Shown here: piece by piece, positions 30,301 through 59,268 of the stretch
Layout: every line of letters begins with the position of its first letter
Position numbering within the stretch: the first letter of the stretch is position 1
Source of the DNA: Dehalococcoidia bacterium
GTDB lineage: Bacteria > Chloroflexota > Dehalococcoidia > Bin125
Length of the DNA stretch: 64,000 nt
Reading direction: 5' to 3'
Assembly (NCBI GenBank): GCA_965237475.1
Contig: OZ250140.1
Coordinates: 483,549-547,548, forward strand
Program-made: the position numbers and the translations under genes
The notes under the pieces: generated by a model
The model's input: only the letters and a program-made list of their open reading frames with translations
Told to the model about the DNA's origin: nothing
The model's database searches: none

Positions 30301-31683
30301 GACAACCGCAGAGATTCGATCTTCGCCTATGACCTCGAAACTGGCGAACTGATCGCCGAGTACGAACTCGACAAACTCAACGCCGATCCGCGCGGCATCT
30401 GGTCCGATGGAGTCACAATCTGGGTCTCCGATGACGCCGCCAATCGCATCTTCGCGTACCGCATCGACGGCGAAACGCTCAAGCGGATCGAGGCGGAGGA
30501 GTTCAGCTTCCAACAGTTGCTGCGCGCCGGCAACGGCGACCCGCGCGGCATCTGGTCCGACGGCGGGGTGGTCTACGTCGTCGACGACGCAGACGACAAG
30601 GTCTACACCTACAACCTGCCCGACGCGATCGACGCGCGCCTCGCGTCACTATCGCTGAGCGGCATCGCGATCGACGAGTTCTCACCGAGACGGAAGTCAT
30701 ACGCGGCGATCCTCAGCAGTGGTCTGACCGAGACCACCGTGCAGGCCACCGCGATGCAGGAGGAGGCCACGGTCATGCTCGCACCGACCGACGCTGATGC
30801 CGACCCCGAGAACGGTCACCAGGCGGCAGTGTCGGACGGGATGGAAATCACTGTCACGGTGATCTCTCCCGACCGCAGCCGCACGCGGGTCTACCGGGTA
30901 TCGCTCCGGCACTGCCTCTCCGGTCTGACCGAGGTGGGCCTCAGTCTTGTCACCTACGTCGGCGGCAGCCTGGTTGACCTGGCGGATTGCGCTCGCGACC
31001 TTTCCGTGGGAATGCTCTACGACCACAAAGAGACCGGCTGGACCGGATTCTTCCTCGACTATCCCGTGTTCCTCAGTCAGCCCTTCCGCGACCGCTTCGC
31101 CGACGGCCTGGCGGCCGGCCAGGTGCTGATCGCCAACCGCGCGCCGGCCGGCAGCGGGCATTGCCTCTCCGGTCTCACTGACGAGCATCTCAGCGCCGTC
31201 ACCTACACCGGCGGCAGCCTCGCTGAACTGGCGGATTGCGCTCGCGATCTCTTCGTCGACACGCTTTATAGCCAGACCGAGGACGGCTGGACCGGATTCT
31301 TCCCCGGCTATGCCACGTTCCTCAGTCAGCCCTTCCGCGAGCGGTTCCCCGACGGTCTGGGGGCTGGCCAGGCGCTGATCGCCAAACGCGCGCCCGCCGG
31401 CAGCGAGCGCTGCCTCCCAGGTCTCACCGAGGCGCCGCTCAGTGCCGTGACCTACACCGGCGGCAGCCTGGATGGGCTGGCGGAGTGCGCCCGCGATCTC
31501 TCCGTCGACGCGCTCTACCACTACACAAGGGACGGTTGGACCGGGTTCTTCCCGGACCATCCCGCCTTCCTCAGCCAGCCCTTCTTCGACCGCTTCGCCG
31601 GCGGCCTGGCAGCTCGCCAGTCGCTGATCGCGAAACGCAACCCAGCTGCGATCACTACACCGATCAACGGCAGCCCGAACTGA
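24331..31683 (+). CDS. giant exported repeat protein 1 (2450 aa): beta-sandwich repeats, two propeller-like 'WSDG' repeat blocks, about 12 Fn3-like repeats, poly-Gly hinge, triple ~80-aa Cys-containing C-terminal repeats
   Basis: Likely start at Met 24382 followed by a signal peptide (LLLVGVAGVALLGALLSSPLSAHG). Repeats are visible directly in the translation. 18-bp tandem repeat (agcaccgagacgaagagc x2) in a T/S/K-rich linker at about 29660-29700. Confidence 0.85.
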   Translation: MAHSDHQSERVRGRGRSMGELTRRARRVCAAVFGIVRHRPTLLLVGVAGVALLGALLSSPLSAHGQSFDQVSADTTARWIVEGGRVSAGGGNGLTKFAQLSDAGAIDEGHSVSAVVWSTAPHGPSGIGIRGAYSSIANTPTSGGPATTQTTPAEVLVTPTFLRIAEAGSGSYWVWLRTAPSADVAIVISAGAGVAAYPAEVKFTPTSWRSAQIITVSAPDDADTTNEDILITHEVKIGSASEYLNVVVRSVHVVIEDDDDAGIYVSPTRMRIAEGHSATIDVKLEAAPTADVTVTPTATTTTGDSSVPDFDSLTFTSNDWNTAQQLTLSAPQDAGISSEGFRITFTAGSSDSNYNITKYRGPEVVVEFADDDGRWACLSVRPKRLYVPEAGTATFNVALCTKPRARRAGGSPDVGISISAGGDVTVDPNRLRFDESNWASGITVTVSAGADEDGANDEVTVNIRGSGGGDSLYAGTEAQVPVIVIDDDSGGIINPTDITVPEGGRGYYKAMVISEPSGVVTISISAGPGVTTNVSRLSFTPSNWETPQYVIVSAPADSVTENVGLQLSHSIGGSSSEYDAITLPDVMVTVADSGAGPVNFARADQADGTQLSWSPPPTPITPGLRTEVYQYELERSVDGGAFALLTCVDGDSGSLLDESVVEGTAYRYRVRAVYYATTRCAALRDIELTSGALVQCEASGVWSDGDTIWVAHESDQTLYAYDLATGDAQADDDITPNTAYTDVDGGLWGDATRIWTVTAKHPRPSLPEQVAFVPYRISDGAFLSSDLLPTNGDMRPIGYHPSGVDRAALPAAEAFFSDGSTFWAAASGRDTLFAYRASDGERDYDKDILVPDTVCQHDQVVGIWHDSSQGLLYLATQCSTRKLFALDLSDGPGNAHHIPVHDVTLPPAHGEIKDFWSDGDIVWVSSNTSSTTTRDKLLAYPLHNNRQYSGWSSPPAVESVTVAEASITQTEATATATVSEPNGGLVHLRYSDTTDPENWTLTSLTAEIGSTTVDFLLTGLTANREYTVEASFDSSLPAARTKTATFRTLPPAIESVGAIAKTQTTATISAIISAPNGDSKRVQLRYRIKDETAWQATDPVDTTNDHADFALSDLTSGTDYELEASFDSNFPTDETTTGKFATEPPSVDSVVASGETQTGATITVNVIEPNGSLVYIRFRAGATWKSESAEVASGEVSHEFTLIDLTSDTTYQVDASYDNTFTDSDAIRSDSFKTLPPNVESVDVSDEGQTSATVTVTVEAPNGSEVQLRYRTGTGGWRTTRKPVLAGETSVEFALRGLISDREYEVQASYDSSFPDTDATLSTTFTTLPPSVYSVIVRDKTETTANAKIKIAAPNGDSQTVRLRYSPTAAESWSTAEPATSTDADATIPLQSLTAATQYKAEATLASDFTSGVRSTVFSTLGDDAIVEDIFVYEEDIHQTEAWATIIVANVGGVPRHVYLRYRTAGDTPGSWNATLLEADTDPIAQDTATIRITNLIAGTQYDVQASLDSTFATGTQQTTFTTDAPDPEIVSVIATSDSSTRATVTVTINHPDGSSVYVGYRTTGDPPGSWSAPVDFAADTSRHSLTLSGLSPSTEYEVTAVFGTPFPATPRVSDIFSTLAFDATLTDVRVTNIAQSGSGGAAKATVTVAIANANNMARMIYLQYREVGAAAWSDPPLEVSVTETATRDITTLMVSSNYELQASLTDDFTSPAATSFSTPDVVKVSVDVTEQTAKVTVEIGNPGSAEKTVHLRYGPVDETETQTSTKSERTTKTSRSSTETKSSTETKSKEGTTTGDSVEIPLPALIPDQMYSVEASLDDSFNRGVRRAEFRTEAGTSPIITTPGGGGGGGGGGPPPKPVPSEADFTWNVTRDIDSLHGGNDQPTGIWGDGELLWVLQNATSGPDAIFVYDLETGERVEDREFELDHRNRFSHGIWSDGETIWISDSGRDLLFAYDIDTGERLPELDIELHEDNRDPRDIWSDGEVIYVLDNRRDSIFAYDLETGELIAEYELDKLNADPRGIWSDGVTIWVSDDAANRIFAYRIDGETLKRIEAEEFSFQQLLRAGNGDPRGIWSDGGVVYVVDDADDKVYTYNLPDAIDARLASLSLSGIAIDEFSPRRKSYAAILSSGLTETTVQATAMQEEATVMLAPTDADADPENGHQAAVSDGMEITVTVISPDRSRTRVYRVSLRHCLSGLTEVGLSLVTYVGGSLVDLADCARDLSVGMLYDHKETGWTGFFLDYPVFLSQPFRDRFADGLAAGQVLIANRAPAGSGHCLSGLTDEHLSAVTYTGGSLAELADCARDLFVDTLYSQTEDGWTGFFPGYATFLSQPFRERFPDGLGAGQALIAKRAPAGSERCLPGLTEAPLSAVTYTGGSLDGLAECARDLSVDALYHYTRDGWTGFFPDHPAFLSQPFFDRFAGGLAARQSLIAKRNPAAITTPINGSPN

Positions 31684-35908: not shown

Positions 35909-35936
35909 GTCGTCCAACGACCTGAGTTGCTCGAAG

Positions 35937-43986: not shown

Positions 43987-44475
43987 GCTGAACTGGCTGG
44001 TCCCAGACTGACGACTGCGCCGAGGCCGAGCGGGTCCGCAACCTGCGTGACTACGTTGCAGACCGCGCCCACACTGGCTGCTGGAGCCGCGGCCGAACCT
44101 CAGAGCGCGTGATCGACAGGGCCAAACTGTGGTCGCAACTCACAGCCGCATGGGTCGCCAGAGCCTGGGCACAGAACCGACTAGCGCACGTTCACATCGG
44201 CGACGGAATCGCCAATCGCAGCCGGTGTTGGATCTCCCACTGCCCCTGGCTCCCGCTCCCCGATTCGAGCGGGGCCGGGTCACCGAGCCAGTCGGCGGGT
44301 GAGTTGACTAACCACGAACATCTCTGCCCCAGATGTGTACCGTCCTTCGTCCGAAATGACCCAGCACCGCTTGATTCAAACTCAGTTGCACTGGCAAGGT
44401 GCTTTGACATGCATCATCGGTTGCCTCTTCAGCGCGCTATGGTCAGATGCCAATCGGATGGGCGAGAATCTTCTG

Positions 44476-46541
44476 ATGCGGCGCATGAAGCACATCGCCT
44501 GCCTCGTCATAAGTGCCGTTGCAGCCGCCCTCATCCTCCCCGCGCAGTCCGTGTCTGCGGATGACCAGCCGCCAGCGTCGCTGCCCGTCACGATCCAGTT
44601 GTATCCGGGTTGGAACCTGGTCGGTTGGCTGGGCGAGGAAACCACCGCGGGCTCCTTGTTCGAGTCCATTGAGAGTCTGGAGGTCGTCTTCGTCAGTCGC
44701 CACGTCAAGCGGGTCGGTGGAGTCCAATGGGAGGAGGTACTGCGCAAGTCGGATCTGACCATGCAAGCGGGAGAAGCGCTCTGGCTGAAGCTGCGCGAAG
44801 ACGGTCAGGTGTCGTGGACCCAGCAGGCGTTCACCGAAGTCGATCCGCTGCAACTCCAACCCGGGCTCAATGCCGCCGTCTGGGCCTGGCGCCACGACTC
44901 GTGGGCTGCTCGGCAATATCTCGCGCAGAGGCGCTGGCGCCGCGACCTGCCCGAGTTCAGCGCCTGGGATGCGGCGGCGACAGTGTTGGGTTCCAACCTG
45001 AACGCTATCTGGCGCTGGAACGCATAAAGCCAGCTTTTTGAATTCTGGGGCCGTGGCGCGCCCATCGACCACCGCTCGCGGGACATTCCGGCGCTGCAAA
45101 CCGGCGAGGCGCTGCTGGTCAACGTCTCCAACCAACCCTCCTGGCACGCTCCGCAGGGTCCGGCGGGAGTCGGGACCGAATGGCTCTCTGTCGAGCAGGA
45201 GCGGGATCTTCGAACGGCAATCGCCAGCGTGCATGACTTCTTCGATGGTCACCTGGGACGAGATGCGCCGCGATCACGATCACCGAGTTACCACTCCCTT
45301 GTCTGACCGGCGGAAGCGCTCTGCTACTCGTGCTCTATTTGCCGTGCGAAGAGATCGACTGGCTCATCGGTGTCGCGCTGTCCCAGCACTACGTTCTTCG
45401 CTTCGAATGGCAATCACGTCAGGCCGGCCCGCGGTCCGAGCCCGCCTGTCTGAAGGTCGGGATCGCCCAGTACACCGGCGCGCGCTATCGCGCCGATCGC
45501 GGGATTCACCCACTGGCCAAGTCCCGTGGGACCCTGATCGAGCTGTCCCGTTCCACGCGGCTGAGACTGGATGACCCCCTGTTCTCCCAGGATGTCCAGA
45601 CTCCCGAGCGAGCGCCGCTGTGGGCAAACGACGCAGAGGTGCTGCACGGCGTGCTGAGGGCGCTAGCCGTCGAGTGGCTCGCGGAGACCTTCGGCGAAGC
45701 GGCTGTGCGCTCTCACATCATCGCCACGCGTTCGATCCACTGGGCCGATGCGTTTGAGCAGGCGTTTGGGCGAACGGCCGCCGAAGCCCTCGCAGACTTT
45801 GAGGCGTACCGCCTGGAGCTCTCGCTGATCGACGGTCGCCGCACGTGGTCGAATCGCCCCTATCACCAGGTTGCGATGCTCGGAGCACTGGCCGAACGCC
45901 GCTGGGAGACCTGGGAGCTGGTCGAGCAAATCATCAACCACTTCGACGCTGAACACGATCTCAGGGCGGGCTCGGCGACCTTCATCCTCGGCCTCCTGCC
46001 GGCTGACTACTTGGTTCTGAGCGGAGAGCCCGGATACCTCTCATGCGGGCGGACGTTTGACAGCGTGCTCCTCATCGTCGCCGGCTGCGGGATGGCAAAC
46101 CAGATCGCGCACGAGTACGCGCAGGTGCTGCAAGGCCACTTCCGCGTCGGTACCGTCCTGGGCAGCTATCCAAATTGGTTGCTGGAGGGTCACGCCGACT
46201 ACCTGGCTTACGAGTTCGTCGGCGCGATGGGCATCGAGGAGCACGGTGGATCAAGCCCGTACAGCAGGGCGAACGACCTCAGGCGGATACCGCCGTGGTT
46301 GGGCACAGGGCTTACCGACGAGGAACTGGCCCAGGCGGCCCTGAACGATGAACCGTATGTCGCCGGCGAGGCAGCAATCAAGCTGATTATTGAGCTGTTC
46401 GGCCACGACGCGCTCTTGGAGCTGCTGGGTCCGACAGACACGTTCGATTACGGCGAGCACTTCGAGACCGTGACCCGAACCAGCCTGAGCCGTTTCGTGG
46501 CGCATTTCGGCATGCACCTGCGGTCGCTGCCTGCACAATGA
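44476..46541 (+). pseudogene. paralog of the secreted Peptidase_MA_2-like protein at 48465..49727, disrupted (in-frame TAA at 45025-45027, frame change near 45300) and with HEYAQ in place of HExxH
   Basis: Signal peptide MRRMKHIACLVISAVAAALILPAQS. Shared 'LYPGWNLVGW' and 'AIWRWNA/AIAWRWDP' blocks. The alignment with the paralog runs straight through the TAA. Downstream part: IAHEYAQVLQGH...NWLLEGHADYLAYE. Confidence 0.5.
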
Positions 46542-47100: not shown

Positions 47101-48468
47101 TCATGGCGCGCAGGGGTCGCTTGGGAGGACCCAATGTACGTCCTTCACGTCTGCCGAACTCACGGAGAGCTGGCGTTGCAACGCGGGATTCGATCCTGCG
47201 GCGCAGTCGCTTCGCCGCCAGTGGGGAAACACAAGAGTTTGCGGGCCCGCTGTAGGAGCGACCACGCTGAAGCGTCCGCTCTCGCTGGTAGTGGGGCCGA
47301 CGCAGGGACCGCGGCCGTCCGTTCCTTGGCACAAGTCGAATGTCAGATTGGCGTGTGGATTCAAGTCCGAGTCGGTCACTCGGCCCTCGATCAACCAGCG
47401 GCAGGCACCCGGGTCGATGCGCCACGTTAACGTCACCGGGGCTTCCGGACCGACGTGGAGATAGCCTCGTTCGACCGCGGTCGAGGTTTCCCGCTCCTGC
47501 CATTGCTCCACATTGTCGGACGTGATATGACAGGCGCCAGCTACTCCGAGCTTCGGACGACGGACGGTGATCGTCAAGCGGTGCTTGCCCGCCTCAGGTA
47601 CCGAAGCGACGAATGTTCCATCGGACCGAATCCGGGCAGAATAACTAAATGCCGGACCTAGCTCGTCGGGTAGTCGGTACAGGGTCACCGCGTGGCTGTC
47701 GTTCCAATCGGCCGAGCGGCCGAGCAGTTGGCCTTTCACTACCAGGTTGCATAACCCGCCGAGTTGCTCCGCAGACACCGTCACCGTTTGCGAGCCAGTC
47801 TCAAGCGGGTAGCGCCTCGCGCTATCGAGGTCGGCGACGAGCCCGTCATCGCTCAGATACAACGGACAAGAACGGCCTTGCTGATCGAGAGAGATCACGT
47901 ATTCGCCCGGCAGCGGAATCGAGGCAATGTACGCCTCTCTACCTGCTGGCCTTGCCTTCACGCAGCCGGCGCCGTCCGCCTTGCAGATGGATACGACCAG
48001 ATTGTGGCGTACAGCATCGGCTGCCTGACCTTCAGGCAGTCTCAAGGTGACGGTCAAATCACAGAACAAGGGGGGCAGGGCCAGGTCAATGCCAGCGACC
48101 ATGTCCAAGTTGGATTTGAGCTTGAGGGGTGTCCTTGTCCATGCCGCCTCACCAGCAACGCTCACAGGCAAGCGACAGTCGGTCGCCCCGTCAGCCAACG
48201 CCAGGGTATGCGCCTGACCCTTCGGCAGATTGAGCGTGAATGCGCCATCATCGGCGACCGCCGCGACGTGCACGAGCGGGAGGCGATCAACGATTTGATC
48301 GATAGCCGTCGCGACGACGAACCCTCCCGACGGAAGCGCATCGGCGTCGAACTGCACACGTCCGTGGAACTGCGTGAACAGGTCGCGCCTGCGTTCGTAG
48401 AAATAGTCATAGAACTCGGCGGTGGTCAGTCCAAAGGCGCGGGCAAATGCTGCCTCCCAGGTGGTCAC
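47101..48468 (-). CDS. C-terminal continuation of the Peptidase_MA_2-like protein (Ig-like/prealbumin-like beta domains), separated from it by a 4-nt overlap/frame change
   Basis: Begins MTTWEAAFARAFGLTTAEFYDYF, which aligns to the region of the paralog 45330..46541 immediately after the point where 48465..49727 stops. GTG 48468 overlaps TGA 48465-48467. Confidence 0.55.
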   Translation of the reverse strand: MTTWEAAFARAFGLTTAEFYDYFYERRRDLFTQFHGRVQFDADALPSGGFVVATAIDQIVDRLPLVHVAAVADDGAFTLNLPKGQAHTLALADGATDCRLPVSVAGEAAWTRTPLKLKSNLDMVAGIDLALPPLFCDLTVTLRLPEGQAADAVRHNLVVSICKADGAGCVKARPAGREAYIASIPLPGEYVISLDQQGRSCPLYLSDDGLVADLDSARRYPLETGSQTVTVSAEQLGGLCNLVVKGQLLGRSADWNDSHAVTLYRLPDELGPAFSYSARIRSDGTFVASVPEAGKHRLTITVRRPKLGVAGACHITSDNVEQWQERETSTAVERGYLHVGPEAPVTLTWRIDPGACRWLIEGRVTDSDLNPHANLTFDLCQGTDGRGPCVGPTTSESGRFSVVAPTAGPQTLVFPHWRRSDCAAGSNPALQRQLSVSSADVKDVHWVLPSDPCAP

Positions 48469-49727
48469 CTCGGTTCGTCGGAGCCCAGGATGCGCCAGAA
48501 GTTGAGCAGCGAGTCGAGGTCGGTCAGTTCGAGGAGGTAAGGGATGGCGATCGTGTCTTGCCGGTAAGATCCTGGGCTGACGAGGCCGCCCTGGTCATAG
48601 AGCGACAAGTCCAAGAGATTCGAGCGAGCTGCGGTCTGCTGGTCGATGACCGGGAATGGTCTGCCAAACCGATCCCACACCGTTGTCCCTTCCACCAGCC
48701 AGTTCGGGACGAATGGACGGTTCGGCGTCGTGAACTCGAACTGAACCAGATGAAAGTACTCGTGCGTCATCACATGTCGTCCGAATGCGTATAGCTCCGA
48801 CTCGTACTCCCGACCGAGGGTCTCGTCCCAGGTCTCCCATGGGATCACGATCACATGTGGACTCCCGCCGGTCGTGGGAGCACCCCGCAGCGCGGCTCCG
48901 GCGGCGTCCGAATCCTTAAGTAGCCCCGAGCGCGTCTGCGAGGTTGTCGGAATCTTGACCACGAAGTGAGATGGATCGATTTCGACTCGGCCGTGGCCTG
49001 TGAACAACGCAACCGTGTGGATGAGGTCGTTCTTGACGATCAGCTCGAAGTCGCGTTCAAGATAATCGTGGTCCAATCCACCGGGGAACTCAATCTCCGG
49101 CAAACGCCCAGACGGATGCAGCCAGGGAGTAGCCCTCTTTAGCTGGAGAATGAAGGCGTCGCCGCGATTCACCGGCAGCCCGTCTCGGTATGGAGCGTAT
49201 ACGTCGGGCGCCCAGGCCTTGAACTCTTGTTGACTCGGGTCCCAGCGCCAGGCGATAGCGAGGTGCGGCTGCAGGCCGACCAGTGCATCGCCAATCGGAA
49301 TGTTGTTTCCGCCTGTCCAGGCGACCGCATTGTGGCCGGCGCCCATTTCGAAGAACCGGCGGGCGGGTGGAGCATCGCGTGTCCAGATGACCTGTTCCGT
49401 TCCACTGACTCGGAACCAATAGCCGACTCCGAAGCGCAGCAGCTGTAGCCCGCGCTTATCCTCAGCCGTATTGCGGATTGCGGAGAGGCCGTCGAGTTGG
49501 TGGATCGACTCGAGCTGTGGTAGCTCCTCGAACAACTCGGCAACGGCGCGGTCCTCGTGGATCCAGCCAACAAGATTCCAACCCGGGTACAAGATGGTCG
49601 TAGAGGCGTCCTCAGCCGAAATCGGAGCACGCGCCACCGCCAGCGCGACCGCCAGGACCGCTACCGACGCGAGAACAAGACGACATGTCAGGCGCGCTTG
49701 GCTTGGCATCGGCCGGTTTCGGTCCAC
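48465..49727 (-). CDS. secreted zinc metallopeptidase-like protein (Peptidase_MA_2-type HEYFH...NWLVEG) with N-terminal 'LYPGWNLVGW' domain
   Basis: Signal peptide. HExxH plus downstream WLxEG glutamate motif. Confidence 0.65.
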   Translation of the reverse strand: MDRNRPMPSQARLTCRLVLASVAVLAVALAVARAPISAEDASTTILYPGWNLVGWIHEDRAVAELFEELPQLESIHQLDGLSAIRNTAEDKRGLQLLRFGVGYWFRVSGTEQVIWTRDAPPARRFFEMGAGHNAVAWTGGNNIPIGDALVGLQPHLAIAWRWDPSQQEFKAWAPDVYAPYRDGLPVNRGDAFILQLKRATPWLHPSGRLPEIEFPGGLDHDYLERDFELIVKNDLIHTVALFTGHGRVEIDPSHFVVKIPTTSQTRSGLLKDSDAAGAALRGAPTTGGSPHVIVIPWETWDETLGREYESELYAFGRHVMTHEYFHLVQFEFTTPNRPFVPNWLVEGTTVWDRFGRPFPVIDQQTAARSNLLDLSLYDQGGLVSPGSYRQDTIAIPYLLELTDLDSLLNFWRILGSDEPR

Positions 49728-52068: not shown

Positions 52069-55000
52069 TCAGCCGTCCGGCCGCGTCGCCGCGAGCCCCG
52101 GCGCGGCGCTGACGATGGTCCAGGTCAACGGCTCCGTGACGGAGATCAGATAGGCGCTGCCGTTGCTGAGAGTGGTGAGCGTGCGGAGTCCGGGAACGTT
52201 AGCCAGCTCGGGGTCCGTGACAAAGATGCGCCAGGTTTGCGTGGCTGGGTCGTACTCGTAGATCGCGATGACCTTGTCTGAGATGTCGTCGTCGGCCCCG
52301 GTCCCGCGCAGCGCGTCGGCGATCGGGACGCCGTCGCGGCCGGGCCAGCTGAACGAGCTCAGGCCGGCGTCAAGCTCGATCAGCGACTCGACGCTCTCGA
52401 TTCGGACTCGGTAGACGCGCCTGCGGCTGGCGTCTGCGGAGGTCACGGTGATCGTGATCTCGGCGCCCGCCGTGATCGCGACCTGGTGGCCGTTCTCCGC
52501 GTCCGCGTCCGCGTCGGCGGGCTCGATCACCACGCCGGCCTGCTCCTGCACGGCTGCGGCTGCGATCGTGCTGGTCGCCGCACCGCCCGTTGAGGAGCCG
52601 CCGTACTGCGTTGTACGGCTCGAGAACGCGCCGAACTCGATCTCGCTCAGGCTCAACTCGGCCAGCCTCGCGTCGGCCGCGTCGGGCAGGTTGTAGCTGT
52701 AGACATGGTCGTCCTGCTCGTCGACCACATAGACCACCTCGCCGTCGCCCCAGATGCCGCGCGGCTGGCCGTTGCCGGCCTTCAGCAGCGGACGGAAGCT
52801 GAACTCCTCCGCCTCGATCCGGGTCAGCGTCTCGGCTTCGACGCGGTAGGCGAAGAGCCGCTTCGCGCCGTCGTCGGAGGCCCAGAGGGTGAGGCCGTCG
52901 GACCATAGGCCGCGCGGGCTGCGGTTGAGCCGGTCGAGCGGATATTCGGCCAGCAGTTCGCCGCTCGTCAAGTCGTAGGCGAACAGCGAGTCGCGCACGC
53001 TGTCGAGCACCCAGAGCGTTGCGCCGTCGGACCAGATGCCGCGTGGGTCGCGGTTATCCTCGGACAGTTCGAGGTCGCGCTGCTCCACACGCTCGCCCGT
53101 GGCGAGTTCGTAGGCGAACAGCCGGTCCTGGCCGCTATCGGCGATCCATATGGTCTCACCATCGGACCAGATGCCGTGCGCGAAGCGGTTGCGAGCGACG
53201 AGCGGGAACTCAAGCTCGGGTTGGCGCTCCCCGCTGGCGAGGTCGTAGGCGAAGACCGCGTCGGCGCCGCCGGCGGCGTTCTCCAGCACCCAGAGCGTCT
53301 GGCCGTCGGACCAGATCCCGGTGGGCAGATCGTGTTCGCGGTCCAGTGACTCGATGTCGCGAGTCACGTTCCACTCGAAGTCAACCTCCGAGGGGATCGG
53401 GATCGGCGGCGGTCCCCCGCCTCCGCCCCCGCCACCACCGCCGCCGCCCGTTGAGGTGGTGGTCCTGACCGGGATTTGAGCCAGAAGTTCGGAGATATCT
53501 ACCTCGGTGACGATCACCTTTACCTCGAAGTCAGCCGAGTTGCCCTCACTATCAGTAGCCGTGATTGTCAACTCGTAGATGTTGTCGGAGCCGCTGTCTG
53601 TTGGCGCAGCATAGTTGGGCAACGGGGCCCAGTTTGTGTACAAGTGCTCGAAGCCTGGGTCCGTGCCCGGCAGGCTGAAAGGCCTGTCGTTATAGAAGCT
53701 GAGCACGCCGCCTGCGCTGATTTCGAAGTCGGCGCCGTCGGCCCCGGACAACGCCCAGGTGATTGGTGTATGGCCATCCTCGTCGGTCGCGGTATACGTC
53801 GCCACGGGATCGTCTACATGCTCCTCAAAGGTCAAGAACGATTCGCCCGTCACGACCGGCCGGTCATTCACATCGATGACGCTGATGGTCACGCGTATCG
53901 AGTCGGTCTCACCGGAGGGGTCAGTGGCGGTCACAACCACTGTATAGCTGGTTCTCTGTTCATAGTCGAGGGCGGCTCTTGTACTGAGCTGGCCCGTGTT
54001 TCTTTCGATCTCGAAATACTGCTCGCCACCGCTGTCCAACTGGTAAGTCCGCGGGTCGCCGTCCGGGTCGGTGGCCTCGACGGGCGGTCCAATGGGTTGA
54101 CCGCTGGGGGTGTTTTCGCGCACAGTTCGGGCGCCCGTCTCGCTGGATGGGAACTCGGGCGGATCGTTGGTGTCCGGCCTGGCCTGCGACCGATTCACGG
54201 AGACCGCTTCCTCAGACTGCCCCGTACTCCACCGGTCGTCATACGAAACGACGACCCTCAACAGGAAATCCGTGTCCGTAGCTGTGGGCGTATAAGTCGC
54301 CGACACGGCATCGTTGATCACAAACCACCGGTCGACCACCGTCCCCTTGCGCCACCAGGTCCAGACGGCGTTGGTCACACCCCCATCCGGGTCGCTCAGT
54401 TCGGCCCTGAATGGGACATCCTCGACCGGTTGCTGCGACGATAGCTGCAGCGTTCCGGGCTCATTTTCGTTGCCAATGGTCACCGAGACAGGTTGCGTCG
54501 CGGTGTTGGTCCCGTCGGTGACCTCCAGCGTCACCTGGTAAACGCTGTCTGAGTTCGCGTCGGTCGGAGACTCATAGTCGGGAATCGCCAGCAATCTGAG
54601 CACGCCATCGTTGGCGATGGGCTCGAAGTCCTCGCTATCGGTCCCCGACAGACTCCAGACGAGCGGCTGATCTTCCGGGTCCTCAGCCGTGTAGTCGTAC
54701 GTCAGATCGGAGTCGTTCTCCATCCGGGTCGGGGCAAAATCACCCAAGATCACTGGCGCTTCGTTCGCATCGGTGACCGAGACAGTCAGGTCCCAGGCGC
54801 CGGTCAATAGCGCTTCGTCCCTGACGCTCACGGTCAAGTGGTAGACGTTGTCCACATCGGCGTCGCCGGGCATTTCGAAGTCTGGTGGCGCATTGAAACT
54901 GAGCACGCCGCGTTCGCTGAGCGTGAAGAGGTCCTTGTCGGCGCCGGCCAACTCCAACCAGGTGATCATCGTCCCTTCCGGGTCGCTGGCAGTGAACGTG

Positions 55001-58000
55001 TGTACCGCGCCGACGCCGTTTTCCTCGTACCGGGCGTTCTCGGGACCGGTGACCAGGGGCATCTCCTCCACGTTGGTCACCGTGACGGTGATGGCGCTGG
55101 TCACTGCGTTGGTCCCGTCAGAGGCCCGCACGTCGACCCGGTAGGTGTTGTCGCCACCACTATCAAGGGGAAAATCGTAGTTGCGCAATCGACGTAATTT
55201 GCTTCTGAGGATCCCGTTGCTACTGATCTCGAATCGGAGCTCGTCAGTCCCCAGCAGCGACCAGACGATTGGCGCGTTCTCAGGATCGTTGGCTGTGAAG
55301 ACGGCCACCGCCCCAGAGGTGTTCTCGGCTTGGGTCGCCGTGCCTGGTCCCGAGATCGTTGGAGCTTCATCGCGGTCGGTGATCGCGATTCGGACGTTCC
55401 GCGCGCCCCTGTTGCCGTTCTGGTCCGCAGCCTGCACTGACACGTGGTAGACGTTGTCCCGGCCGGCATCGGTCGGCGCCTCGTAGTCGGGCGTCGTGAC
55501 GAAGCTGAGCGACCCGTTGGTGATCGTAAAGTCGTCACGGTCTTGCCCCGCCAGCGACCAGGAAATCGTGCCGCTCTCCGGGTCCGACGCGCTGTAGCTG
55601 CCCACGGCGCCGGTGCGGTTCTCGGCAAACACGATGTCGGCCAGACCCGAAACGGACGGGGCCTCGTCCACTCCGGTGACCGTGATCGTGACGGCCTGCG
55701 TGTCCGCGGCGAGCGACGGATCCCGGACCGTGACCGTCAGTGAGTACGAGGCCCGGCTTTCCGTGCTGAGAGCCGCCTTCGTGCGCAGTTGGCCCGTATC
55801 AGCGTCGATCTCGAAGTCGCTGGCCCGGGAGCCACTGAGGGCATAGTTCAGGGTGTCGCCACTATCGGCATCCGTCGCCTCGACCGGCGCGCCGATGTCC
55901 ACGCCGGCGGCCGTGTTCTCGGCCACGCTGCGCGCGCCCGTTTCGGTGGACGGGAACTCGGGCGCGGCATTCGTCGCCGGCGCTGCGCGGACGGCGGAAC
56001 TGAGTTCGAACTGCGCGCTCCTGCCCGCTCCGAGCGGGTCTCTGTAGGCCGCCGTCACTCGCAGGTAGTTGTTCAGGTCGGCGTCAACCGGGGTGTAGCG
56101 GAACGAAGTCGCTCCGCTGATTGGACTCCAGCTCACGAGGTTGCTCGAGCTCTCCCACGTCCACGTGATCCTGCTCGCGTTGCCGTCCTGGTCAACCACG
56201 GTCGCGGTTAGTGCGGCGCCGACCTGCGGCTGGAGCGAAGACAGGCGCAGCTCGCCTGGATCGTCCCGGTTGACTACGTTGACCGTGATGTCGATCAAGG
56301 CGGCGTTGGCGCCGTCACTGGCCTCGACCGTCAGCTCGTGGCTGCGCAGGCGCTCGTAGTCGAGCGTGGCGCTCGTACGCAACTGGCCGTCGCTGTCGAT
56401 CGCAAAGAGCGCAGCGGCCGGGCCGGTCAGGGTATAGGTCAGTGCGCCGCCCTCCGGGTCTACAGCCGCGAGCGGAGCTCCGATCGCGCTGCCCGCCGCT
56501 GCGTCTTCAACGATTTCGCGCGTCGCGGTCGCCTCCGCGAAAACCGGTGGTTCATCAACCCCGCTCACCGTGATCTCGACATGTCGGAAGGCAACCAGCT
56601 TGCCGTCCGAGACCTGCACGGCGAACCTGAGGACATCCTGGGCTTCGTGATCCAGGACGGCCCCGACTGCCAACTGGCCCGTCGCCTGGTCGATGTCGAA
56701 GGCGAGGGCGTCTGCCCCGACCAGCGCGTACGAGAGCGTGTCGCCGTCGCTATCGGTGGCGTCGACGGGAGCGCCGACGTCGGTTCCCAATGCTGCATCC
56801 TCGGCAACCGTGTATAGGGCCGTCGCCGAGCTAAACGAGGGCGGAACGCTTGGCTGCCGCAGCGTCGGATAGTCGCTGCTGGCGCCGAAGTCCCAGGGGT
56901 CATGCGCGCTGACCGGAAAGTAGCCGAAATCAGTCAGAACTTGCTCCACGTTCCAGTGCAGGTAGATGCCCGTGTAGTCGATGGGCGTCTGTAGCTCGGA
57001 GGTGGTCAGGCCCGATGCGCCGTCGGTTGACGTTTCGCCGCTCCCGATCATGCCGTCGCCGTTGAGATCGTCCGACCCGACGCCAACGCTCCGTCCCGTG
57101 GTCTGCGTGTCCCAATAGTCATAGAAGAATCCACCAAACCCCAACGAGCCGGCAAATCCACCAACGTTCGTCGTGCCGGTCACTGAGCCCGTGGCATAGC
57201 TGGCGCGGACTCCGGGCCTTGTGCTGGCGCCGACCAACCCACCGACATCTGTGGCGCCGCTCAGCGATCCCGTCGCATACGACGCAAAGATCCTGCCCCT
57301 GAGACGTCCGACCAGGCCTCCGACATTGCTGGATCCGATCACGCCACCCGTTGCGTAGCTGCGGTGAACTTCGCCGTTACCCAACCCCACCAAGCCACCG
57401 ACATCTGTGGTTCCAGTGACAGTTCCGCTGGCAAAGGTTCCATTAAGGATCGATGCCACCGAGCCATGGCCAACCAACCCTCCCGTTTCCGCGCCTCCGC
57501 TGATCGCGCCGGTCGCGGCGCTCTCGACGATCGTGCCGCCGACGACGCCGAGCAACCCACCGACCTTCGTGCCCGTGCTGAGCACGTCGCCGAACGCCGT
57601 GCTCCCGCCGACCCCAGAAATGGCGCGGCCGGCGAGGCCGCCGACCTCGTCACCCGTGCCGGTCGCGTCACCGACAGCGCCGATCGCGCTGCTGTCGAAA
57701 ATCGCTGCCCTGCTGTAGCCGATCAATCCGCCAACTTGGTCGTGGCCCGTCACGGCGCCGCTGGCGAAGCTGTCGCGGATCGTTCCGCTGTTCCGTCCGA
57801 CCAGACCGCCGGTGGCCTCGCCTTCCGCGTTGTTGCCGGTGACCGCGCCGCTGGCCGTGCTTCGCTGAATCTGCGCGCTCACATTCCGGCCGACCAGACC
57901 GCCAACGTAGCTGTGGCCCGTCACGCCGCCGCGAGCGCTGCTGTCGCTAATCGGACCGTCGTTCCAGCCGACCAGCCCGCCCGCCCAGTTGCCCGCTGTG

Positions 58001-59268
58001 ATGGCGCTAGCGCTCGCCGTGCTCTCGCTGATCGCATTGACACCTCCGGCGCCGTCGTTGGACCCGAGCAGTCCGCCCACCGTTGAGAGTCCACGCACTG
58101 TCGTGCCGAGGGCATGGCTGTCGCTGATCGGACCGTTGTTCCAGCCAACCAACCCTCCGGCATAGTGGCCGCTGGCCGTCACATCCCCACTGGCAGTACT
58201 ATTCTCGATCTGGTTGTGACCGTCTGCCTGCTCGTCATAGTTGCTGCCCACGAGTCCGCCGACATTGGCGCCGCCGCTGACGGTACCGCTGGCGCTGCCG
58301 GCGCTGATCGGGCCGTTGTTCCAGCCGACCAGCCCACCGACGGAATGGTCGTAGCCGGTCACCGCGCCGCTGGCAGCGCTGTCGCTGATCGGATTGTCAC
58401 CATCGTTCTGAGCGTCATAGTTGTTGCCTACCAGGCCGCCGACGGAGCTGTTGCCGCTGACGACGACGCTGGCGCTGCTAGCGCTGATCGGGCCGTAGTT
58501 CAGCCCGACCAAGCCGCCGATGACGTCGCCGGAAGCGGATACAAGGCCTGAGGCGCTGCTGCCGCTGATCGTTCCTGCGTTCCAGCCGACCAACCCGCCG
58601 ACAGTCCCCAATCCGGTAATGGTCAAATTGACCAGGGTGACATTGCGGATCACGCTGCTCGTGCCCGCCTGGCCGAACAAGCCAAGGCTGTACGAAAGCG
58701 CCCGGTTGATGTACAGGCCGTTGATCGTAAAGTCCGGGGCTCCGCCGTCGAAGGTGGCGTTAAATCTGCTCGTCTCGCTATCCGTCGAGCCGTCGCCGAT
58801 CGGATACCAGCCGGCAGCGCCATGTCCTGCGTCAGCAAGGTTCAGGTCCGCCACCAGCTCATAGCCCGTGCAGGTCGATGGGCAACCCATCCTCGAGACC
58901 GCGTCCGGGAACGCTGCGGCGTAATCAGTCGCTGAGGCGCTGGAGTCCGCGCTGCCATCGCCGTTCAGATCCCAGCGGACGGCGTTCAGCTGCGCGACCG
59001 ACCGGATCTCAATCAGGCCGTCTTGATCCGTGTCGTAGTCAATGCTGCCGGTCTGCGCATGGGCGGTTGAGTCGAAGCCCTGCTCGGCCAGTAGGATCAC
59101 GCAGCCAAGCGCGATCGCCACTACGGCCAACAGCCTGACCGTATTCGGCGCTGCCAGCGCTCTGCGTGTTCGCGTCGGTCGAGCAGAGCGGTCGCGCGCA
59201 GCGACGCACGCTGGCGGAGCTTGGTTGGAACGGGCCCAGCCAATGCGTCGACAAATGCGCCTATGCAT
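52069..59268 (-). CDS. giant exported repeat protein 2 (2399 aa): DxDxDG Ca-binding-like N-terminus, GLUG-motif glycine-rich repeats, about 8 cadherin-like repeats, poly-Gly/Pro hinge, 'IWSDG' propeller-like repeats, cadherin-like beta-sandwich C-terminus
   Basis: GLUG-like VGGLVGxNxGxI repeats. Cadherin-like repeats ending ...TVTGVDEAP. C-terminal about 450 aa collinear with protein 1 (GGGGGGGGGPPP..SE(A/V)DF(T/E)WNVTRDI(D/E)SL...). Confidence 0.85.
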   Translation of the reverse strand: MHRRICRRIGWARSNQAPPACVAARDRSARPTRTRRALAAPNTVRLLAVVAIALGCVILLAEQGFDSTAHAQTGSIDYDTDQDGLIEIRSVAQLNAVRWDLNGDGSADSSASATDYAAAFPDAVSRMGCPSTCTGYELVADLNLADAGHGAAGWYPIGDGSTDSETSRFNATFDGGAPDFTINGLYINRALSYSLGLFGQAGTSSVIRNVTLVNLTITGLGTVGGLVGWNAGTISGSSASGLVSASGDVIGGLVGLNYGPISASSASVVVSGNSSVGGLVGNNYDAQNDGDNPISDSAASGAVTGYDHSVGGLVGWNNGPISAGSASGTVSGGANVGGLVGSNYDEQADGHNQIENSTASGDVTASGHYAGGLVGWNNGPISDSHALGTTVRGLSTVGGLLGSNDGAGGVNAISESTASASAITAGNWAGGLVGWNDGPISDSSARGGVTGHSYVGGLVGRNVSAQIQRSTASGAVTGNNAEGEATGGLVGRNSGTIRDSFASGAVTGHDQVGGLIGYSRAAIFDSSAIGAVGDATGTGDEVGGLAGRAISGVGGSTAFGDVLSTGTKVGGLLGVVGGTIVESAATGAISGGAETGGLVGHGSVASILNGTFASGTVTGTTDVGGLVGLGNGEVHRSYATGGVIGSSNVGGLVGRLRGRIFASYATGSLSGATDVGGLVGASTRPGVRASYATGSVTGTTNVGGFAGSLGFGGFFYDYWDTQTTGRSVGVGSDDLNGDGMIGSGETSTDGASGLTTSELQTPIDYTGIYLHWNVEQVLTDFGYFPVSAHDPWDFGASSDYPTLRQPSVPPSFSSATALYTVAEDAALGTDVGAPVDATDSDGDTLSYALVGADALAFDIDQATGQLAVGAVLDHEAQDVLRFAVQVSDGKLVAFRHVEITVSGVDEPPVFAEATATREIVEDAAAGSAIGAPLAAVDPEGGALTYTLTGPAAALFAIDSDGQLRTSATLDYERLRSHELTVEASDGANAALIDITVNVVNRDDPGELRLSSLQPQVGAALTATVVDQDGNASRITWTWESSSNLVSWSPISGATSFRYTPVDADLNNYLRVTAAYRDPLGAGRSAQFELSSAVRAAPATNAAPEFPSTETGARSVAENTAAGVDIGAPVEATDADSGDTLNYALSGSRASDFEIDADTGQLRTKAALSTESRASYSLTVTVRDPSLAADTQAVTITVTGVDEAPSVSGLADIVFAENRTGAVGSYSASDPESGTISWSLAGQDRDDFTITNGSLSFVTTPDYEAPTDAGRDNVYHVSVQAADQNGNRGARNVRIAITDRDEAPTISGPGTATQAENTSGAVAVFTANDPENAPIVWSLLGTDELRFEISSNGILRSKLRRLRNYDFPLDSGGDNTYRVDVRASDGTNAVTSAITVTVTNVEEMPLVTGPENARYEENGVGAVHTFTASDPEGTMITWLELAGADKDLFTLSERGVLSFNAPPDFEMPGDADVDNVYHLTVSVRDEALLTGAWDLTVSVTDANEAPVILGDFAPTRMENDSDLTYDYTAEDPEDQPLVWSLSGTDSEDFEPIANDGVLRLLAIPDYESPTDANSDSVYQVTLEVTDGTNTATQPVSVTIGNENEPGTLQLSSQQPVEDVPFRAELSDPDGGVTNAVWTWWRKGTVVDRWFVINDAVSATYTPTATDTDFLLRVVVSYDDRWSTGQSEEAVSVNRSQARPDTNDPPEFPSSETGARTVRENTPSGQPIGPPVEATDPDGDPRTYQLDSGGEQYFEIERNTGQLSTRAALDYEQRTSYTVVVTATDPSGETDSIRVTISVIDVNDRPVVTGESFLTFEEHVDDPVATYTATDEDGHTPITWALSGADGADFEISAGGVLSFYNDRPFSLPGTDPGFEHLYTNWAPLPNYAAPTDSGSDNIYELTITATDSEGNSADFEVKVIVTEVDISELLAQIPVRTTTSTGGGGGGGGGGGGPPPIPIPSEVDFEWNVTRDIESLDREHDLPTGIWSDGQTLWVLENAAGGADAVFAYDLASGERQPELEFPLVARNRFAHGIWSDGETIWIADSGQDRLFAYELATGERVEQRDLELSEDNRDPRGIWSDGATLWVLDSVRDSLFAYDLTSGELLAEYPLDRLNRSPRGLWSDGLTLWASDDGAKRLFAYRVEAETLTRIEAEEFSFRPLLKAGNGQPRGIWGDGEVVYVVDEQDDHVYSYNLPDAADARLAELSLSEIEFGAFSSRTTQYGGSSTGGAATSTIAAAAVQEQAGVVIEPADADADAENGHQVAITAGAEITITVTSADASRRRVYRVRIESVESLIELDAGLSSFSWPGRDGVPIADALRGTGADDDISDKVIAIYEYDPATQTWRIFVTDPELANVPGLRTLTTLSNGSAYLISVTEPLTWTIVSAAPGLAATRPDG

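What the first reader, a model, noticed from the sequence alone, without database searches (positions are those of the whole stretch)
52069..59268. Second giant protein (2399 aa, GLUG plus cadherin-like) converges on the first and shares its about 450-aa C-terminal module (about 75% DNA identity in the hinge)
Both giant genes end in: poly-Gly(10-12)-PPPxP, then SE(A/V)DF(T/E)WNVTRDI(D/E)SL, then five ~45-aa 'GIWSDGxTIWVxDxxxxxLFAYDLxTGE' repeats, then 'EAEEFSF..LL.AGNG.PRGIWSDG', then an LSLS cadherin-like beta-sandwich ending ...SR.RVYRV. The N-terminal parts are unrelated (Fn3-type vs GLUG/cadherin-type). Their module-encoding ends face each other across a ~20 kb island of secreted-enzyme and surface-protein genes. 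This looks like a common anchoring, secretion or partner-binding module on two different stalks, possibly defining a surface system.
Basis: seen in the sequence. Interest (0 to 1): 0.65.

Follow-up and report, generated by a model that had tools for sequence, protein, structure and literature searches.

The report
Shared C-terminal propeller module, symbiont surface proteins
Two giant secreted proteins of a Dehalococcoidia bacterium (most likely a sponge symbiont) end in the same uncharacterised module, which turns out to be the common C-terminal end of a very large protein family and most likely holds or targets these proteins at the cell surface.

Summary
Protein B (52069-59268, minus strand, 2399 aa) and protein A (24331-31683, plus strand, 2450 aa) share about 366 aa at 61% identity (E 4e-127; 72.6% DNA identity). 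Their N-terminal parts are unrelated.

Three details need correcting:
- There are five repeats in all (4+1), not 5+1.
- The shared part is about 370-390 aa, not 450. The extreme C-termini differ.
- The 20-kb spacer is not a coherent surface-protein island.

The module consists of a poly-Gly/Pro hinge, a five-bladed beta-propeller, a cadherin-like beta-sandwich, and in B a ~95-aa domain with no structural match in the PDB.

This is not a local pairing. A and B are old paralogues (dS about 0.9) of a very large family:
- 2,602 clusters (at 50% identity) match at E<=1e-30.
- A 3.6-Mb genome holds at least 13 copies.
- The named records are almost all Chloroflexota/Dehalococcoidia MAGs, some with sponge-type names.

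In 74 of 75 related loci the module sits at the C-terminus. It follows cadherin, fn3, LRR and Calx-beta stalks, and also subtilase and sugar-dehydrogenase domains. No neighbouring gene is conserved.

My best reading (about 0.5) is a general surface-retention or targeting module in a lineage reported to lack peptidoglycan. It matches no known sorting domain.

The parts
52069..59268 (-). Gene for giant protein B (2399 aa from the first ATG; an ENA gene call gives 2350 aa)
   Evidence: ORF list, translation, gene call on the source contig.
59053..59139 (-). Predicted Sec signal peptide of B (about aa 44-72: VRLLAVVAIALGCVILLA...STAHA|Q). Coordinates are approximate.
   Evidence: Read from the sequence. 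The same hydrophobic stretch followed by AxA|Q is seen in most complete family members. No signal-peptide predictor was available.
53479..58701 (-). Variable stalk of B: GLUG-repeat region (about aa 190-700), then about ten cadherin/Big_9-type domains (about aa 810-1930). Boundaries are approximate.
   Evidence: Pfam Glug 1.9e-20, Cadherin 2e-55, Big_9 7e-16, Cadherin_4 3e-11.
53392..53448 (-). Hinge of B: G12 (nt 53413-53448) followed by PPPIPIP
   Evidence: The Gly codons are mixed, so this is not a simple slippage tract. A G(7-25)-PPPxPxPS hinge is seen in nearly all canonical family members.
52681..53391 (-). Five-bladed beta-propeller of B (aa 1960-2196), including the N-terminal cap motif SEVDFEWNVTRDIESLD
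   Evidence: AlphaFold2 model with pLDDT 85.6. Best Foldseek matches are the five-bladed glutaminyl cyclases 3nol/3mbr, TM 0.72-0.73. Blade-to-blade identity is 26-60%. PF13360 scores 38 bits when the propeller is scanned alone.
52393..52674 (-). Cadherin-like beta-sandwich of B (aa 2199-2292), from ARLAELSLS to SRRRVYRV
   Evidence: PF12733 scores 20.9 bits in B and 24.0 in A, just under the 24.2 cut-off. It scores 29.7-47.4 bits in family members. Strands are visible in the model.
52105..52392 (-). Terminal ~95-aa domain 'T' of B (aa 2293-2388)
   Evidence: Separate model with pLDDT 84.4. No Foldseek match in the PDB, best E 0.28. No Pfam hit. Present once or twice at the C-terminus of canonical family members.
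24331..31683 (+). Gene for giant protein A (2450 aa), a paralogue with an fn3-type stalk
   Evidence: It has an orthologue at 79% nt identity, with synteny, in a Dehalococcoidia MAG (L066, OZ253504.1).
29863..30912 (+). Hinge (G10 PPPKPVP), propeller and beta-sandwich of A. This is the part shared with B.
   Evidence: BLASTP 61% identity, blastn 72.6%, codon analysis dS 0.86 and dN 0.28.
30913..31680 (+). Three tandem 86-aa Cys-containing repeats (CL[SP]GLT...), which end A in place of the T domain
   Evidence: Homology to T is not shown (hhalign probability 3%).
26380..27160 (+). Internal, divergent third copy of the propeller, inside protein A
   Evidence: tblastn 25-32% identity, E down to 9e-16. 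BLASTP segments.
48465..49727 (-). Secreted protein resembling an MA-clan metallopeptidase (HEYFH, NWLVEG), with two T-like domains directly after its signal peptide
   Evidence: hmmsearch with the T-domain profile, E 3.5e-6. Weak Peptidase_MA_2 hit, E 0.053. Sequence.
44335..45027 (+). ORF with a signal peptide and a T-like domain (LYPGWNLVGW...)
   Evidence: BLASTP against the 48465-49727 ORF, E 4e-11. It was not hit directly by the T profile.

Best explanation
B and A are two paralogues of a large, lineage-specific family of Sec-secreted proteins of Dehalococcoidia. The named records are almost all Chloroflexota, and several carry sponge-type MAG names.

Every canonical member has a variable N-terminal 'payload'. 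This can be a cadherin, fn3, GLUG, LRR or Calx-beta stalk, or an enzyme. It is followed by the same C-terminal cassette:
- a flexible poly-Gly/poly-Pro hinge;
- an acidic, internally symmetrical five-bladed beta-propeller;
- a cadherin-like beta-sandwich;
- one or two copies of a small terminal domain, or alternative terminal repeats.

Proposed mechanism: after export and signal-peptide cleavage, the cassette holds the protein on the cell envelope without a covalent bond. It would do so by binding a common envelope component or by self-association. The hinge then lets the payload project outwards. This would replace sortase-, SLH- or LysM-type anchoring in a lineage reported to lack peptidoglycan.

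Shown here: the homology, the fold, the constant C-terminal position, the diversity of payloads, the copy number, and the purifying selection.

Inferred only: signal-peptide cleavage, surface retention, and the identity of the receptor.
For: 1. The module is at the C-terminus in 74 of 75 related loci, 414-452 aa from module start to stop. Exceptions: a few carry extra terminal repeats (551-699 aa), one is shorter (355 aa), and one ORF is cut short. 78 of the 147 best cluster representatives have hinge, propeller, sandwich and tail at the very end.
2. The payloads are unrelated and include enzymes: subtilase S8 with P-domain, glucose/sorbosone dehydrogenase (249 bits), LRR_8, Calx-beta, cadherin and fn3. 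This is the pattern seen with generic anchoring or targeting modules, not with a specific ligand-binding head.
3. The module is the most conserved part. B against its nearest relatives is 62-84% identical over most of the module but 18-55% in the stalk. A against B gives dN/dS of about 0.33 with dS of about 0.9.
4. Copy number is high: at least 13 and at least 11 copies in two 3.6-Mb genomes among the best 80 of 423 matches, and 130 family ORFs in 75 loci.
5. N-termini look like cleavable Sec signals (hydrophobic core, then AxA|Q) with no lipobox, so another means of retention is needed.
6. T-like domains also sit directly behind the signal peptide of a peptidase-like protein in the same window, as portable wall-binding domains do.
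7. Sponge SAR202 genomes, a group placed in Dehalococcoidia, lack peptidoglycan synthesis genes (PMC6306507). The Dehalococcoides S-layer protein is annotated as a BNR/Asp-box repeat protein (PMC6646388), a repeat type typical of propellers. An archaeal S-layer protein with a propeller followed by an Ig-like domain is among the best fold matches (1l0q).
Against: - There is no direct evidence of localisation.
- 54 of the 147 best representatives are giant proteins with many tandem propeller-sandwich units, and protein A has an internal propeller. So the propeller-sandwich pair is also used as a building or binding block away from the C-terminus.
- The terminal domain varies (T, Cys repeats, RIAARR...GRVEFALQ repeats), so it is unclear which sub-domain would be the anchor.
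- No receptor or partner gene is conserved nearby.
- The whole protein is acidic, so charge gives no hint.
- Signal-peptide cleavage could not be predicted with a dedicated tool. If the signals are uncleaved anchors, the module would be the distal end.
- The source genome was not checked for peptidoglycan genes.
Confidence: 0.5

Rival explanations
1. The cassette is the distal, ligand-binding head. It would be a multivalent, lectin-like five-bladed propeller that binds a common host (sponge matrix or glycan) or microbial ligand. The protein would be held on the cell by its N-terminal signal-anchor, and the stalks would act as spacers.
For: - The five blades are highly symmetrical (26-60% identity between blades) with the same conserved acidic and aromatic positions in each, as in multivalent propeller lectins (general knowledge).
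- Tandem arrays of propeller-sandwich units occur in other giant proteins, which fits binding by avidity.
- Cadherin/fn3 proteins of sponge symbionts are thought to mediate attachment to the host (PMC8163846).
- Surface-exposed ligand-binding propellers (BtuG) are among the fold matches.
Against: - The payloads include enzymes and LRR domains, which are themselves the likely functional ends.
- The N-termini look cleavable (AxA|Q).
- A conserved head on dozens of very different giant stalks in one genome is hard to rationalise.
- No lectin fold such as tachylectin-2 appeared among the 50 best Foldseek matches listed.
Confidence: 0.22
2. The cassette is a secretion or quality-control domain. It would be recognised by a dedicated export or processing machine and possibly removed at the poly-Gly hinge, by analogy with the C-terminal domain of type IX secretion substrates.
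For: - Strict C-terminal position on diverse cargo.
- The hinge and cap motif, G(n)-PPPxPxPS-x-DFxWNVTRDIxxLD, is extremely well conserved.
Against: - The proteins already carry N-terminal Sec signals.
- No conserved neighbouring machinery gene was found in 75 loci.
- 440 aa in three folded domains is very large for a signal.
- The DFxWNVTRDI motif belongs to the propeller unit itself. It recurs without poly-Gly between internal units of P0139.
- The module also occurs internally and in tandem.
Confidence: 0.1
3. The propeller is an enzyme of the plant/bacterial glutaminyl-cyclase type. It would, for example, convert the N-terminal Gln left by signal-peptide cleavage into pyroglutamate.
For: - The best structural matches are five-bladed glutaminyl cyclases (3nol, 3mbr, 2iwa; TM 0.65-0.73, E about 1e-10).
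- Most family members, including A and B, have Gln directly after the predicted cleavage site.
Against: - Identity to those enzymes is only 14-16%.
- There is no hit to PF05096 or to any solved cyclase by sequence or profile.
- The conserved residues are the same in all five blades, so they look structural or binding rather than a single active site.
- Gln at +1 is common in bacterial signal peptides generally (own knowledge).
- An enzyme copied onto dozens of giant proteins is implausible.
Confidence: 0.03
4. The shared module has no common function. It would be a selfish or recombination-spread cassette, homogenised by gene conversion at the GC-rich poly-Gly junction.
For: Family members are often clustered or in tandem. 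IS elements lie nearby.
Against: - Synonymous divergence between A and B is high (dS 0.86) with dN/dS of about 0.33 along the whole module.
- The Gly codons are mixed.
- The cassette is conserved between Dehalococcoidia-labelled and Tepidiformaceae-labelled MAGs.

Together these indicate protein-level purifying selection, not recent conversion.
Confidence: 0.03

Closest known systems
Non-covalent surface-anchoring modules that define paralogous families of secreted proteins (SLH domains, CWB2 repeats of Clostridioides difficile, choline-binding repeats, GW modules)
   Same: The logic is the same: a conserved terminal module sits on dozens of paralogues whose other ends vary (adhesin-like stalks, proteases, other enzymes). 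It is combined with an N-terminal Sec signal and is built from internal repeats.
   Different: The fold is entirely different (five-bladed propeller, Ig-like sandwich and a new small domain) and there is no sequence relationship. The usual ligands, peptidoglycan-linked polymers, are probably absent in this lineage (PMC6306507). Anchoring is not demonstrated.
Plant/bacterial-type glutaminyl cyclase (five-bladed beta-propeller; PDB 3nol, 3mbr, 2iwa; Pfam PF05096)
   Same: Best fold match: five blades, TM 0.65-0.73 normalised to the target, rmsd 3.3-6.3 A over about 240 columns.
   Different: 14-16% identity and no sequence or profile hit. The blades here are near-identical repeats. The domain is a C-terminal appendage of giant secreted proteins, not a stand-alone enzyme.
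Archaeal S-layer protein with tandem YVTN beta-propeller and PKD domains (Methanosarcina, PDB 1l0q)
   Same: A propeller directly followed by an Ig-like domain in a surface protein (rank 4, E 8e-10), in an organism without murein (own knowledge).
   Different: That propeller has seven blades (own knowledge) and overall TM is low (0.32-0.35). There is no sequence relationship.
Eukaryote-like cadherin, fn3 and NHL-repeat proteins enriched in sponge symbionts
   Same: Same setting and same stalk domains. Cadherin and fn3 genes are enriched in sponge MAGs, and fn3 is particularly abundant in Chloroflexota (PMC8163846). The blade motif P-R-G-I-W-S-D-G-x-T-I-W-V-x-D...L-F-A-Y resembles NHL/YWTD-type blades (own reading).
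   Different: The two papers I read do not describe a shared C-terminal cassette, and a search for the repeat motif found no paper. No Pfam NHL hit was obtained.
'Choice-of-anchor' domains (NCBIfam/TIGRFAM concept): conserved domains found just upstream of alternative C-terminal anchors
   Same: The propeller-sandwich pair is followed by alternative terminal elements: the T domain once or twice, Cys repeats, or RIAARR...GRVEFALQ repeats.
   Different: None of the terminal elements is a known sorting signal. There is no C-terminal transmembrane helix and no NCBIfam hit. The comparison rests on my own knowledge of that concept.

Membership tests
Known C-terminal sorting/anchoring signals (LPXTG, PEP-CTERM, PGF-CTERM, GlyGly-CTERM, T9SS CTD, SLH) | Match to the curated NCBIfam/Pfam models of these signals | tested here: not met
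   NCBIfam gives only low-scoring cadherin/VCBS-type stalk hits for B and nothing for A. Pfam gives no such domain.
Known C-terminal sorting/anchoring signals (LPXTG, PEP-CTERM, PGF-CTERM, GlyGly-CTERM, T9SS CTD, SLH) | C-terminal motif followed by a hydrophobic transmembrane segment and a basic tail | tested here: not met
   B ends ...TEPLTWTIVSAAPGLAATRPDG and A ends ...KRNPAAITTPINGSPN. Neither has a hydrophobic helix.
Plant/bacterial glutaminyl cyclase (PF05096) | Five-bladed beta-propeller fold | tested here: met
   The model has five blades. Best Foldseek matches are 3nol/3mbr/2iwa with TM 0.65-0.73.
Plant/bacterial glutaminyl cyclase (PF05096) | Sequence or profile similarity to the family | tested here: not met
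   No PF05096 hit even at E<=5 with the propeller alone. No cyclase found in PDB sequence or profile searches at E<=10.
Plant/bacterial glutaminyl cyclase (PF05096) | Catalytic Glu and substrate pocket | not testable with these tools
   Model coordinates and residue-level structural alignments were not available. The conserved residues repeat in every blade, which argues against a single active site.
Generic beta-propeller families (Pfam PQQ_2/BamB-like PF13360; lactonase, SGL, NHL-type propellers) | Pfam hit above the gathering score | tested here: met
   PF13360 scores 38.0 bits against a cut-off of 27.6 when the propeller is scanned alone. Lactonase PF10282 scores 21.5 against 21.7. This places the domain only among propellers in general, not in a functional family.
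Cadherin-like beta sandwich domain (PF12733) | Pfam hit above the gathering score of 24.2 bits | tested here: inconclusive
   B scores 20.9 bits and A 24.0 bits, both just below the cut-off. Homologous positions in family members score 29.7-47.4 bits. The domain is therefore very probably a member.
Bacterial cadherin/GLUG adhesin-like giant proteins (the stalk of B) | Multiple Cadherin (PF00028) and Glug (PF07581) domains behind a signal peptide | tested here: met
   Cadherin 185.6 bits, Glug 72.2 bits. The N-terminal hydrophobic segment with AHA|Q was read from the sequence.
Propeller lectins (e.g. tachylectin-2, five blades) | Fold or sequence match, and sugar-binding residues | tested here: not met
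   None appears among the 50 best Foldseek PDB matches listed and there is no Pfam hit. Only the high blade symmetry is similar.

The most novel reading that the evidence does not exclude
The hinge-propeller-sandwich-T cassette is the signature of an undescribed surface-display system of peptidoglycan-less Dehalococcoidia. A ~440-aa C-terminal module would dock dozens of giant adhesin-like proteins and exo-enzymes per cell onto a common envelope receptor or into a lattice, taking the place of sortase-, SLH- or T9SS-type sorting. This would explain how sponge-symbiotic Chloroflexota present their large repertoire of eukaryote-like cadherin, fn3 and LRR proteins to the host.
Probability: 0.35. 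Interest if true: 0.7.

Novelty: new variant of a known kind. Interest (0 to 1): 0.5.

Why it matters
Sponge symbionts are known to be rich in cadherin, fn3 and other eukaryote-like proteins. How these proteins are displayed is not known, least of all in Dehalococcoidia, which appear to lack a murein wall.

This work shows that many such proteins, and some exo-enzymes, belong to one family defined by a common C-terminal cassette:
- The family has thousands of sequence clusters.
- A small genome holds at least 13 giant copies.
- No curated database model tested here and no paper found here describes the cassette.

That gives a concrete handle on the problem:
- a profile to count and classify these proteins in metagenomes;
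- a defined ~440-aa fragment to express for binding and localisation tests;
- a candidate new small fold, the T domain.

If the docking role is confirmed, it would add a new type of protein anchoring in bacteria. If not, the cassette is still a marker of a major family of symbiont surface proteins.

Tried and rejected
- **Exact look-up of protein B:** not on record. The source contig was found instead through the neighbouring 414-aa protein.
- **PDB sequence and profile searches:** only weak virginiamycin B lyase and SMP-30 hits, E>=0.006.
- **Glutaminyl-cyclase membership:** rejected at sequence level.
- **Homology between A's Cys repeats and B's T domain:** not demonstrable.
- **Conserved partner gene:** none found.
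- **Recent duplication or gene conversion between A and B:** rejected (dS 0.86).
- **Slippage-prone homogeneous poly-Gly tract:** rejected, because the codons are mixed.
- **N-glycosylation sequon in WNVT:** rejected. The Asn is replaced by Thr in the loci from Tepidiformaceae-labelled MAGs (e.g. L010, L021, L027, L036) and protein A lacks the acidic -2 residue.
- **Lipoprotein anchoring:** no consistent lipobox.
- **Charge or pI as a hint to the binding partner:** all parts are acidic, so this is uninformative.
- **Names for the multi-unit giant proteins:** none on record.
- **Literature:** searches for the motif and for such a cassette found nothing.
Full report
**1. The observation**

The ORF at 52069-59268 (minus strand) encodes 2399 aa from its first ATG. 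An ENA gene call on the source contig starts 49 codons later. Pfam finds GLUG motifs and many cadherin/Big_9-type domains in the first ~1,900 aa. The other giant ORF, 24331-31683 (plus strand, 2450 aa), has an fn3-type stalk.

BLASTP aligns B 1957-2321 with A 1859-2222 at 61% identity over 366 aa, E 4e-127. At the DNA level the identity is 72.6% over 1,047 nt.

Four corrections are needed:
- There are five GIWSDG repeats in all: four regular ones of 43-51 aa, and a fifth after the EAEEFSF insertion.
- The shared region is about 370-390 aa, not 450. After ...VYRV, B has one ~95-aa domain and A has three 86-aa Cys-containing repeats. Their relationship to B's domain cannot be shown.
- A contains an additional divergent propeller inside the protein, at nt 26380-27160.
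- The copies are old. dS is 0.86 and dN is 0.28, with no segment of near-identity, and the poly-Gly runs use mixed codons.

**2. What the module is**

An AlphaFold2 model built on 46 homologues (mean pLDDT 85.6) shows three parts:
- a five-bladed beta-propeller (module residues ~26-237);
- a beta-sandwich (~246-335);
- a small alpha/beta domain (~338-430).

The best Foldseek matches in the PDB are the five-bladed plant/bacterial glutaminyl cyclases (3nol, 3mbr, 2iwa; TM 0.65-0.73 normalised to the target; 14-16% identity). They are followed by an archaeal S-layer propeller-plus-PKD protein (1l0q), BtuG surface lipoproteins and NHL domains.

At the sequence level nothing specific is found:
- There is no NCBIfam hit on the module.
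- There is no solved relative by sequence or profile.
- There is no PF05096 hit. When the propeller is scanned alone it gives only a generic propeller hit (PF13360, 38 bits).
- The sandwich is a borderline PF12733 hit in A and B, but a clear one in homologues.

The terminal domain was modelled separately (pLDDT 84.4). It has no Foldseek match in the PDB (best E 0.28) and no Pfam hit.

The five blades are 26-60% identical to one another, with the same conserved positions in each: W-S-D-G, W-V-x-D, F-A-Y-D, G-E, N-x-x-P-R-G.

**3. The family**

- A word-indexed search gave more than 543 hits, down to E 1e-150.
- An exhaustive profile search of 1.84 billion cluster representatives gave 2,602 at E<=1e-30 and 6,248 at E<=1e-10.
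- A scan of one genome per species found 423 confirmed stretches. All but one of the best 75 loci lie in about 13 MAGs, labelled Dehalococcoidia, Tepidiformaceae or Chloroflexota. They include RHO3_bin_68, IRC3_bin_11 and bin125. The exception is a 21-kb contig labelled Vicinamibacterales.
- By their names, the RHO3 and IRC3 MAGs probably come from the sponges Rhopaloeides and Ircinia, which were sampled in PMC8163846. This is my inference from the names.
- Single 3.6-Mb genomes hold at least 13 and at least 11 copies among those best 80 matches alone.
- The window is syntenic with one of these MAGs, OZ253504.1. The orthologue of A is 79% identical at nt level and the adjacent CoA-transferase gene 90%. 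The source is therefore a Dehalococcoidia bacterium of this group.

In 74 of the 75 loci the module ends the protein:
- In most loci the distance from module start to stop is 414-452 aa.
- In eight loci with extra terminal repeats it is 551-699 aa.
- One locus is shorter (355 aa), and one ORF is cut short.
- The host ORFs range from about 430 aa to more than 2,600 aa.

The hinge and cap, G(7-25)-PPPxPxPS-x-DF-x-W-N/T-V-T-R-D-I-x-x-L-D, is the most conserved stretch. The DFxW...RDI...LD part belongs to the propeller unit, because it recurs without poly-Gly between internal units of P0139.

Among the 147 best representatives:
- 78 have the canonical C-terminal cassette;
- 54 are giant proteins with many tandem propeller-sandwich units;
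- 15 have other arrangements.

The N-terminal payloads of canonical members are diverse. They include cadherin, fn3, Calx-beta and LRR_8 domains, and also subtilase S8 with a P-domain and a glucose/sorbosone dehydrogenase.

**4. Surroundings**

The 20.4-kb spacer between the two genes contains:
- two family-III CoA-transferases and an amidohydrolase_2;
- a ParA-like ATPase on a low-GC stretch that has no match in the syntenic locus held;
- an IS transposase;
- a 941-aa fn3 protein with an internal duplication;
- several ORFs of unknown function.

Two of the unknown ORFs (48465-49727 and 44335-45027) carry T-like domains just after a signal peptide. The first of them looks like an MA-clan metallopeptidase.

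Across 75 related loci, the only recurrent neighbour is another family member (130 family ORFs). The next most frequent gene cluster occurs in 7 loci. The neighbourhood of one further homologue is also unrelated. So there is no operon-like 'system', and the convergent arrangement in this window has no special meaning.

**5. Mechanism**

The pattern is a conserved C-terminal cassette under purifying selection, placed on dozens of paralogues whose payloads range from adhesin-like stalks to proteases, each with an N-terminal Sec-type signal that looks cleavable (AxA|Q). This is the pattern of generic anchoring or targeting modules such as SLH, CWB2 or choline-binding repeats (established knowledge).

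The lineage context fits:
- Sponge SAR202 genomes, a group placed in Dehalococcoidia, lack peptidoglycan synthesis genes (PMC6306507), so classical wall anchors would have no substrate.
- The S-layer protein of Dehalococcoides is annotated as a BNR/Asp-box repeat protein (PMC6646388). That repeat type is typical of propellers.

I therefore favour non-covalent retention on the cell envelope, by binding a common component or by self-association, with the Gly/Pro hinge as a swivel. My confidence is about 0.5.

Rival explanations:
- A distal lectin-like head (0.22). It is supported by the blade symmetry and the tandem arrays.
- A secretion or processing domain (0.10).
- A cyclase-type enzyme (0.03).
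- A functionless recombining cassette (0.03). This is contradicted.

None of the functional steps is shown directly.

**6. Comparison and novelty**

Giant cadherin/fn3 proteins are a known feature of sponge symbionts (PMC8163846). What seems undescribed is that many of them share one C-terminal cassette with no dedicated Pfam or NCBIfam model. I found no mention of it in the literature I could search.

The cassette is not a member of any known sorting-signal family, and not of the glutaminyl cyclases by sequence. By fold it is a five-bladed propeller followed by a PF12733-type sandwich and a small domain without a PDB relative.

I rate it a new variant of a known kind: a modular secreted surface protein with a conserved terminal module.

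**7. Verdict**

- The general interpretation, a common module on different stalks, is supported and much extended.
- The local 'surface system' idea is not supported.
- Interest is 0.5. This is a large, uncharacterised family with a testable role, but its function rests on inference.

Noticed in passing
window 48465-49727 (-), 47101-48468 (-), 44335-45027 (+), 45330-46541 (+): These are secreted proteins that resemble MA-clan metallopeptidases (HEYFH...NWLVEG; a second ORF has HEYAQ...NWLLEG). They carry one or two copies of the same small 'GWNLVGW' domain that ends giant protein B, placed directly after the signal peptide. ORF 47101-48468 overlaps the upstream ORF by 4 nt and begins with what looks like the tail of the peptidase domain. 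The homologues P0285-P0287 are 649-674 aa, so the two ORFs may be one split gene.
   Followed up: partly
window 26380-27160 (+), inside protein A: Protein A has a second, divergent propeller of the same repeat type (25-32% identity to the C-terminal one), between its N-terminal Ig-like domains and its fn3 array.
   Followed up: partly
window 34000-36000; ORFs 34275-35114 (+) and 35111-35650 (+): GC drops to 0.578, against about 0.65 elsewhere. The stretch holds a ParA/MinD-like ATPase and a small unknown ORF, and it has no match in the syntenic locus L066 held here. It is probably an inserted mobile segment.
   Followed up: partly
window 42885-43826 (+): An IS transposase (DUF772 plus DDE_Tnp_1). 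Copies at 76-80% nt identity lie next to family members in other MAGs (L015, L019, L020, L066), so the element is multi-copy in this group.
   Followed up: partly
window 12274-19027 (-): A type I restriction-modification system: HsdR (12274-15360) and HsdM (17558-19027), with ORFs between them that could encode HsdS. R-M systems are reported to be enriched in sponge symbionts (PMC8163846).
   Followed up: no
window 39306-42131 (-): A 941-aa secreted fn3-containing protein made of two ~430-aa halves that repeat each other. The stretch 'LTSSRELCTANTLTELSWEI.GG.PPY.LTIDG' occurs twice.
   Followed up: no
N-termini of A, B and loci L003-L076: Most complete family members have Gln as the first residue after the predicted signal-peptidase site (AxA|Q), while their C-terminal propeller is structurally closest to glutaminyl cyclases. 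This is probably a coincidence, but it was not excluded.
   Followed up: partly
L026, L031, L070, L073, L074 (C-terminal ends); L020, L068: Some family members end in other repeat types: 'RI[AG]ARR..GRVEFALQ.R..DG.WG.R.LP..RF' repeats, or further domains placed after the T domain. The extreme C-terminus is therefore interchangeable.
   Followed up: no
P0137-P0187 (representatives): These are giant proteins of up to 6,437 aa. Most are made of many tandem propeller and/or sandwich units, for example ten or more pairs in P0137 with no poly-Gly hinge. All come from unnamed ENA metagenome contigs.
   Followed up: partly
window 31924-33123 (+), 36541-37428 (-), 37475-38692 (-), 20957-22378 (+): A cluster of CoA-transferase (family III, two copies), amidohydrolase_2 and acetyl-CoA hydrolase/transferase genes flanks protein A. 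This is ordinary cytoplasmic metabolism and is unrelated to the surface proteins.
   Followed up: no
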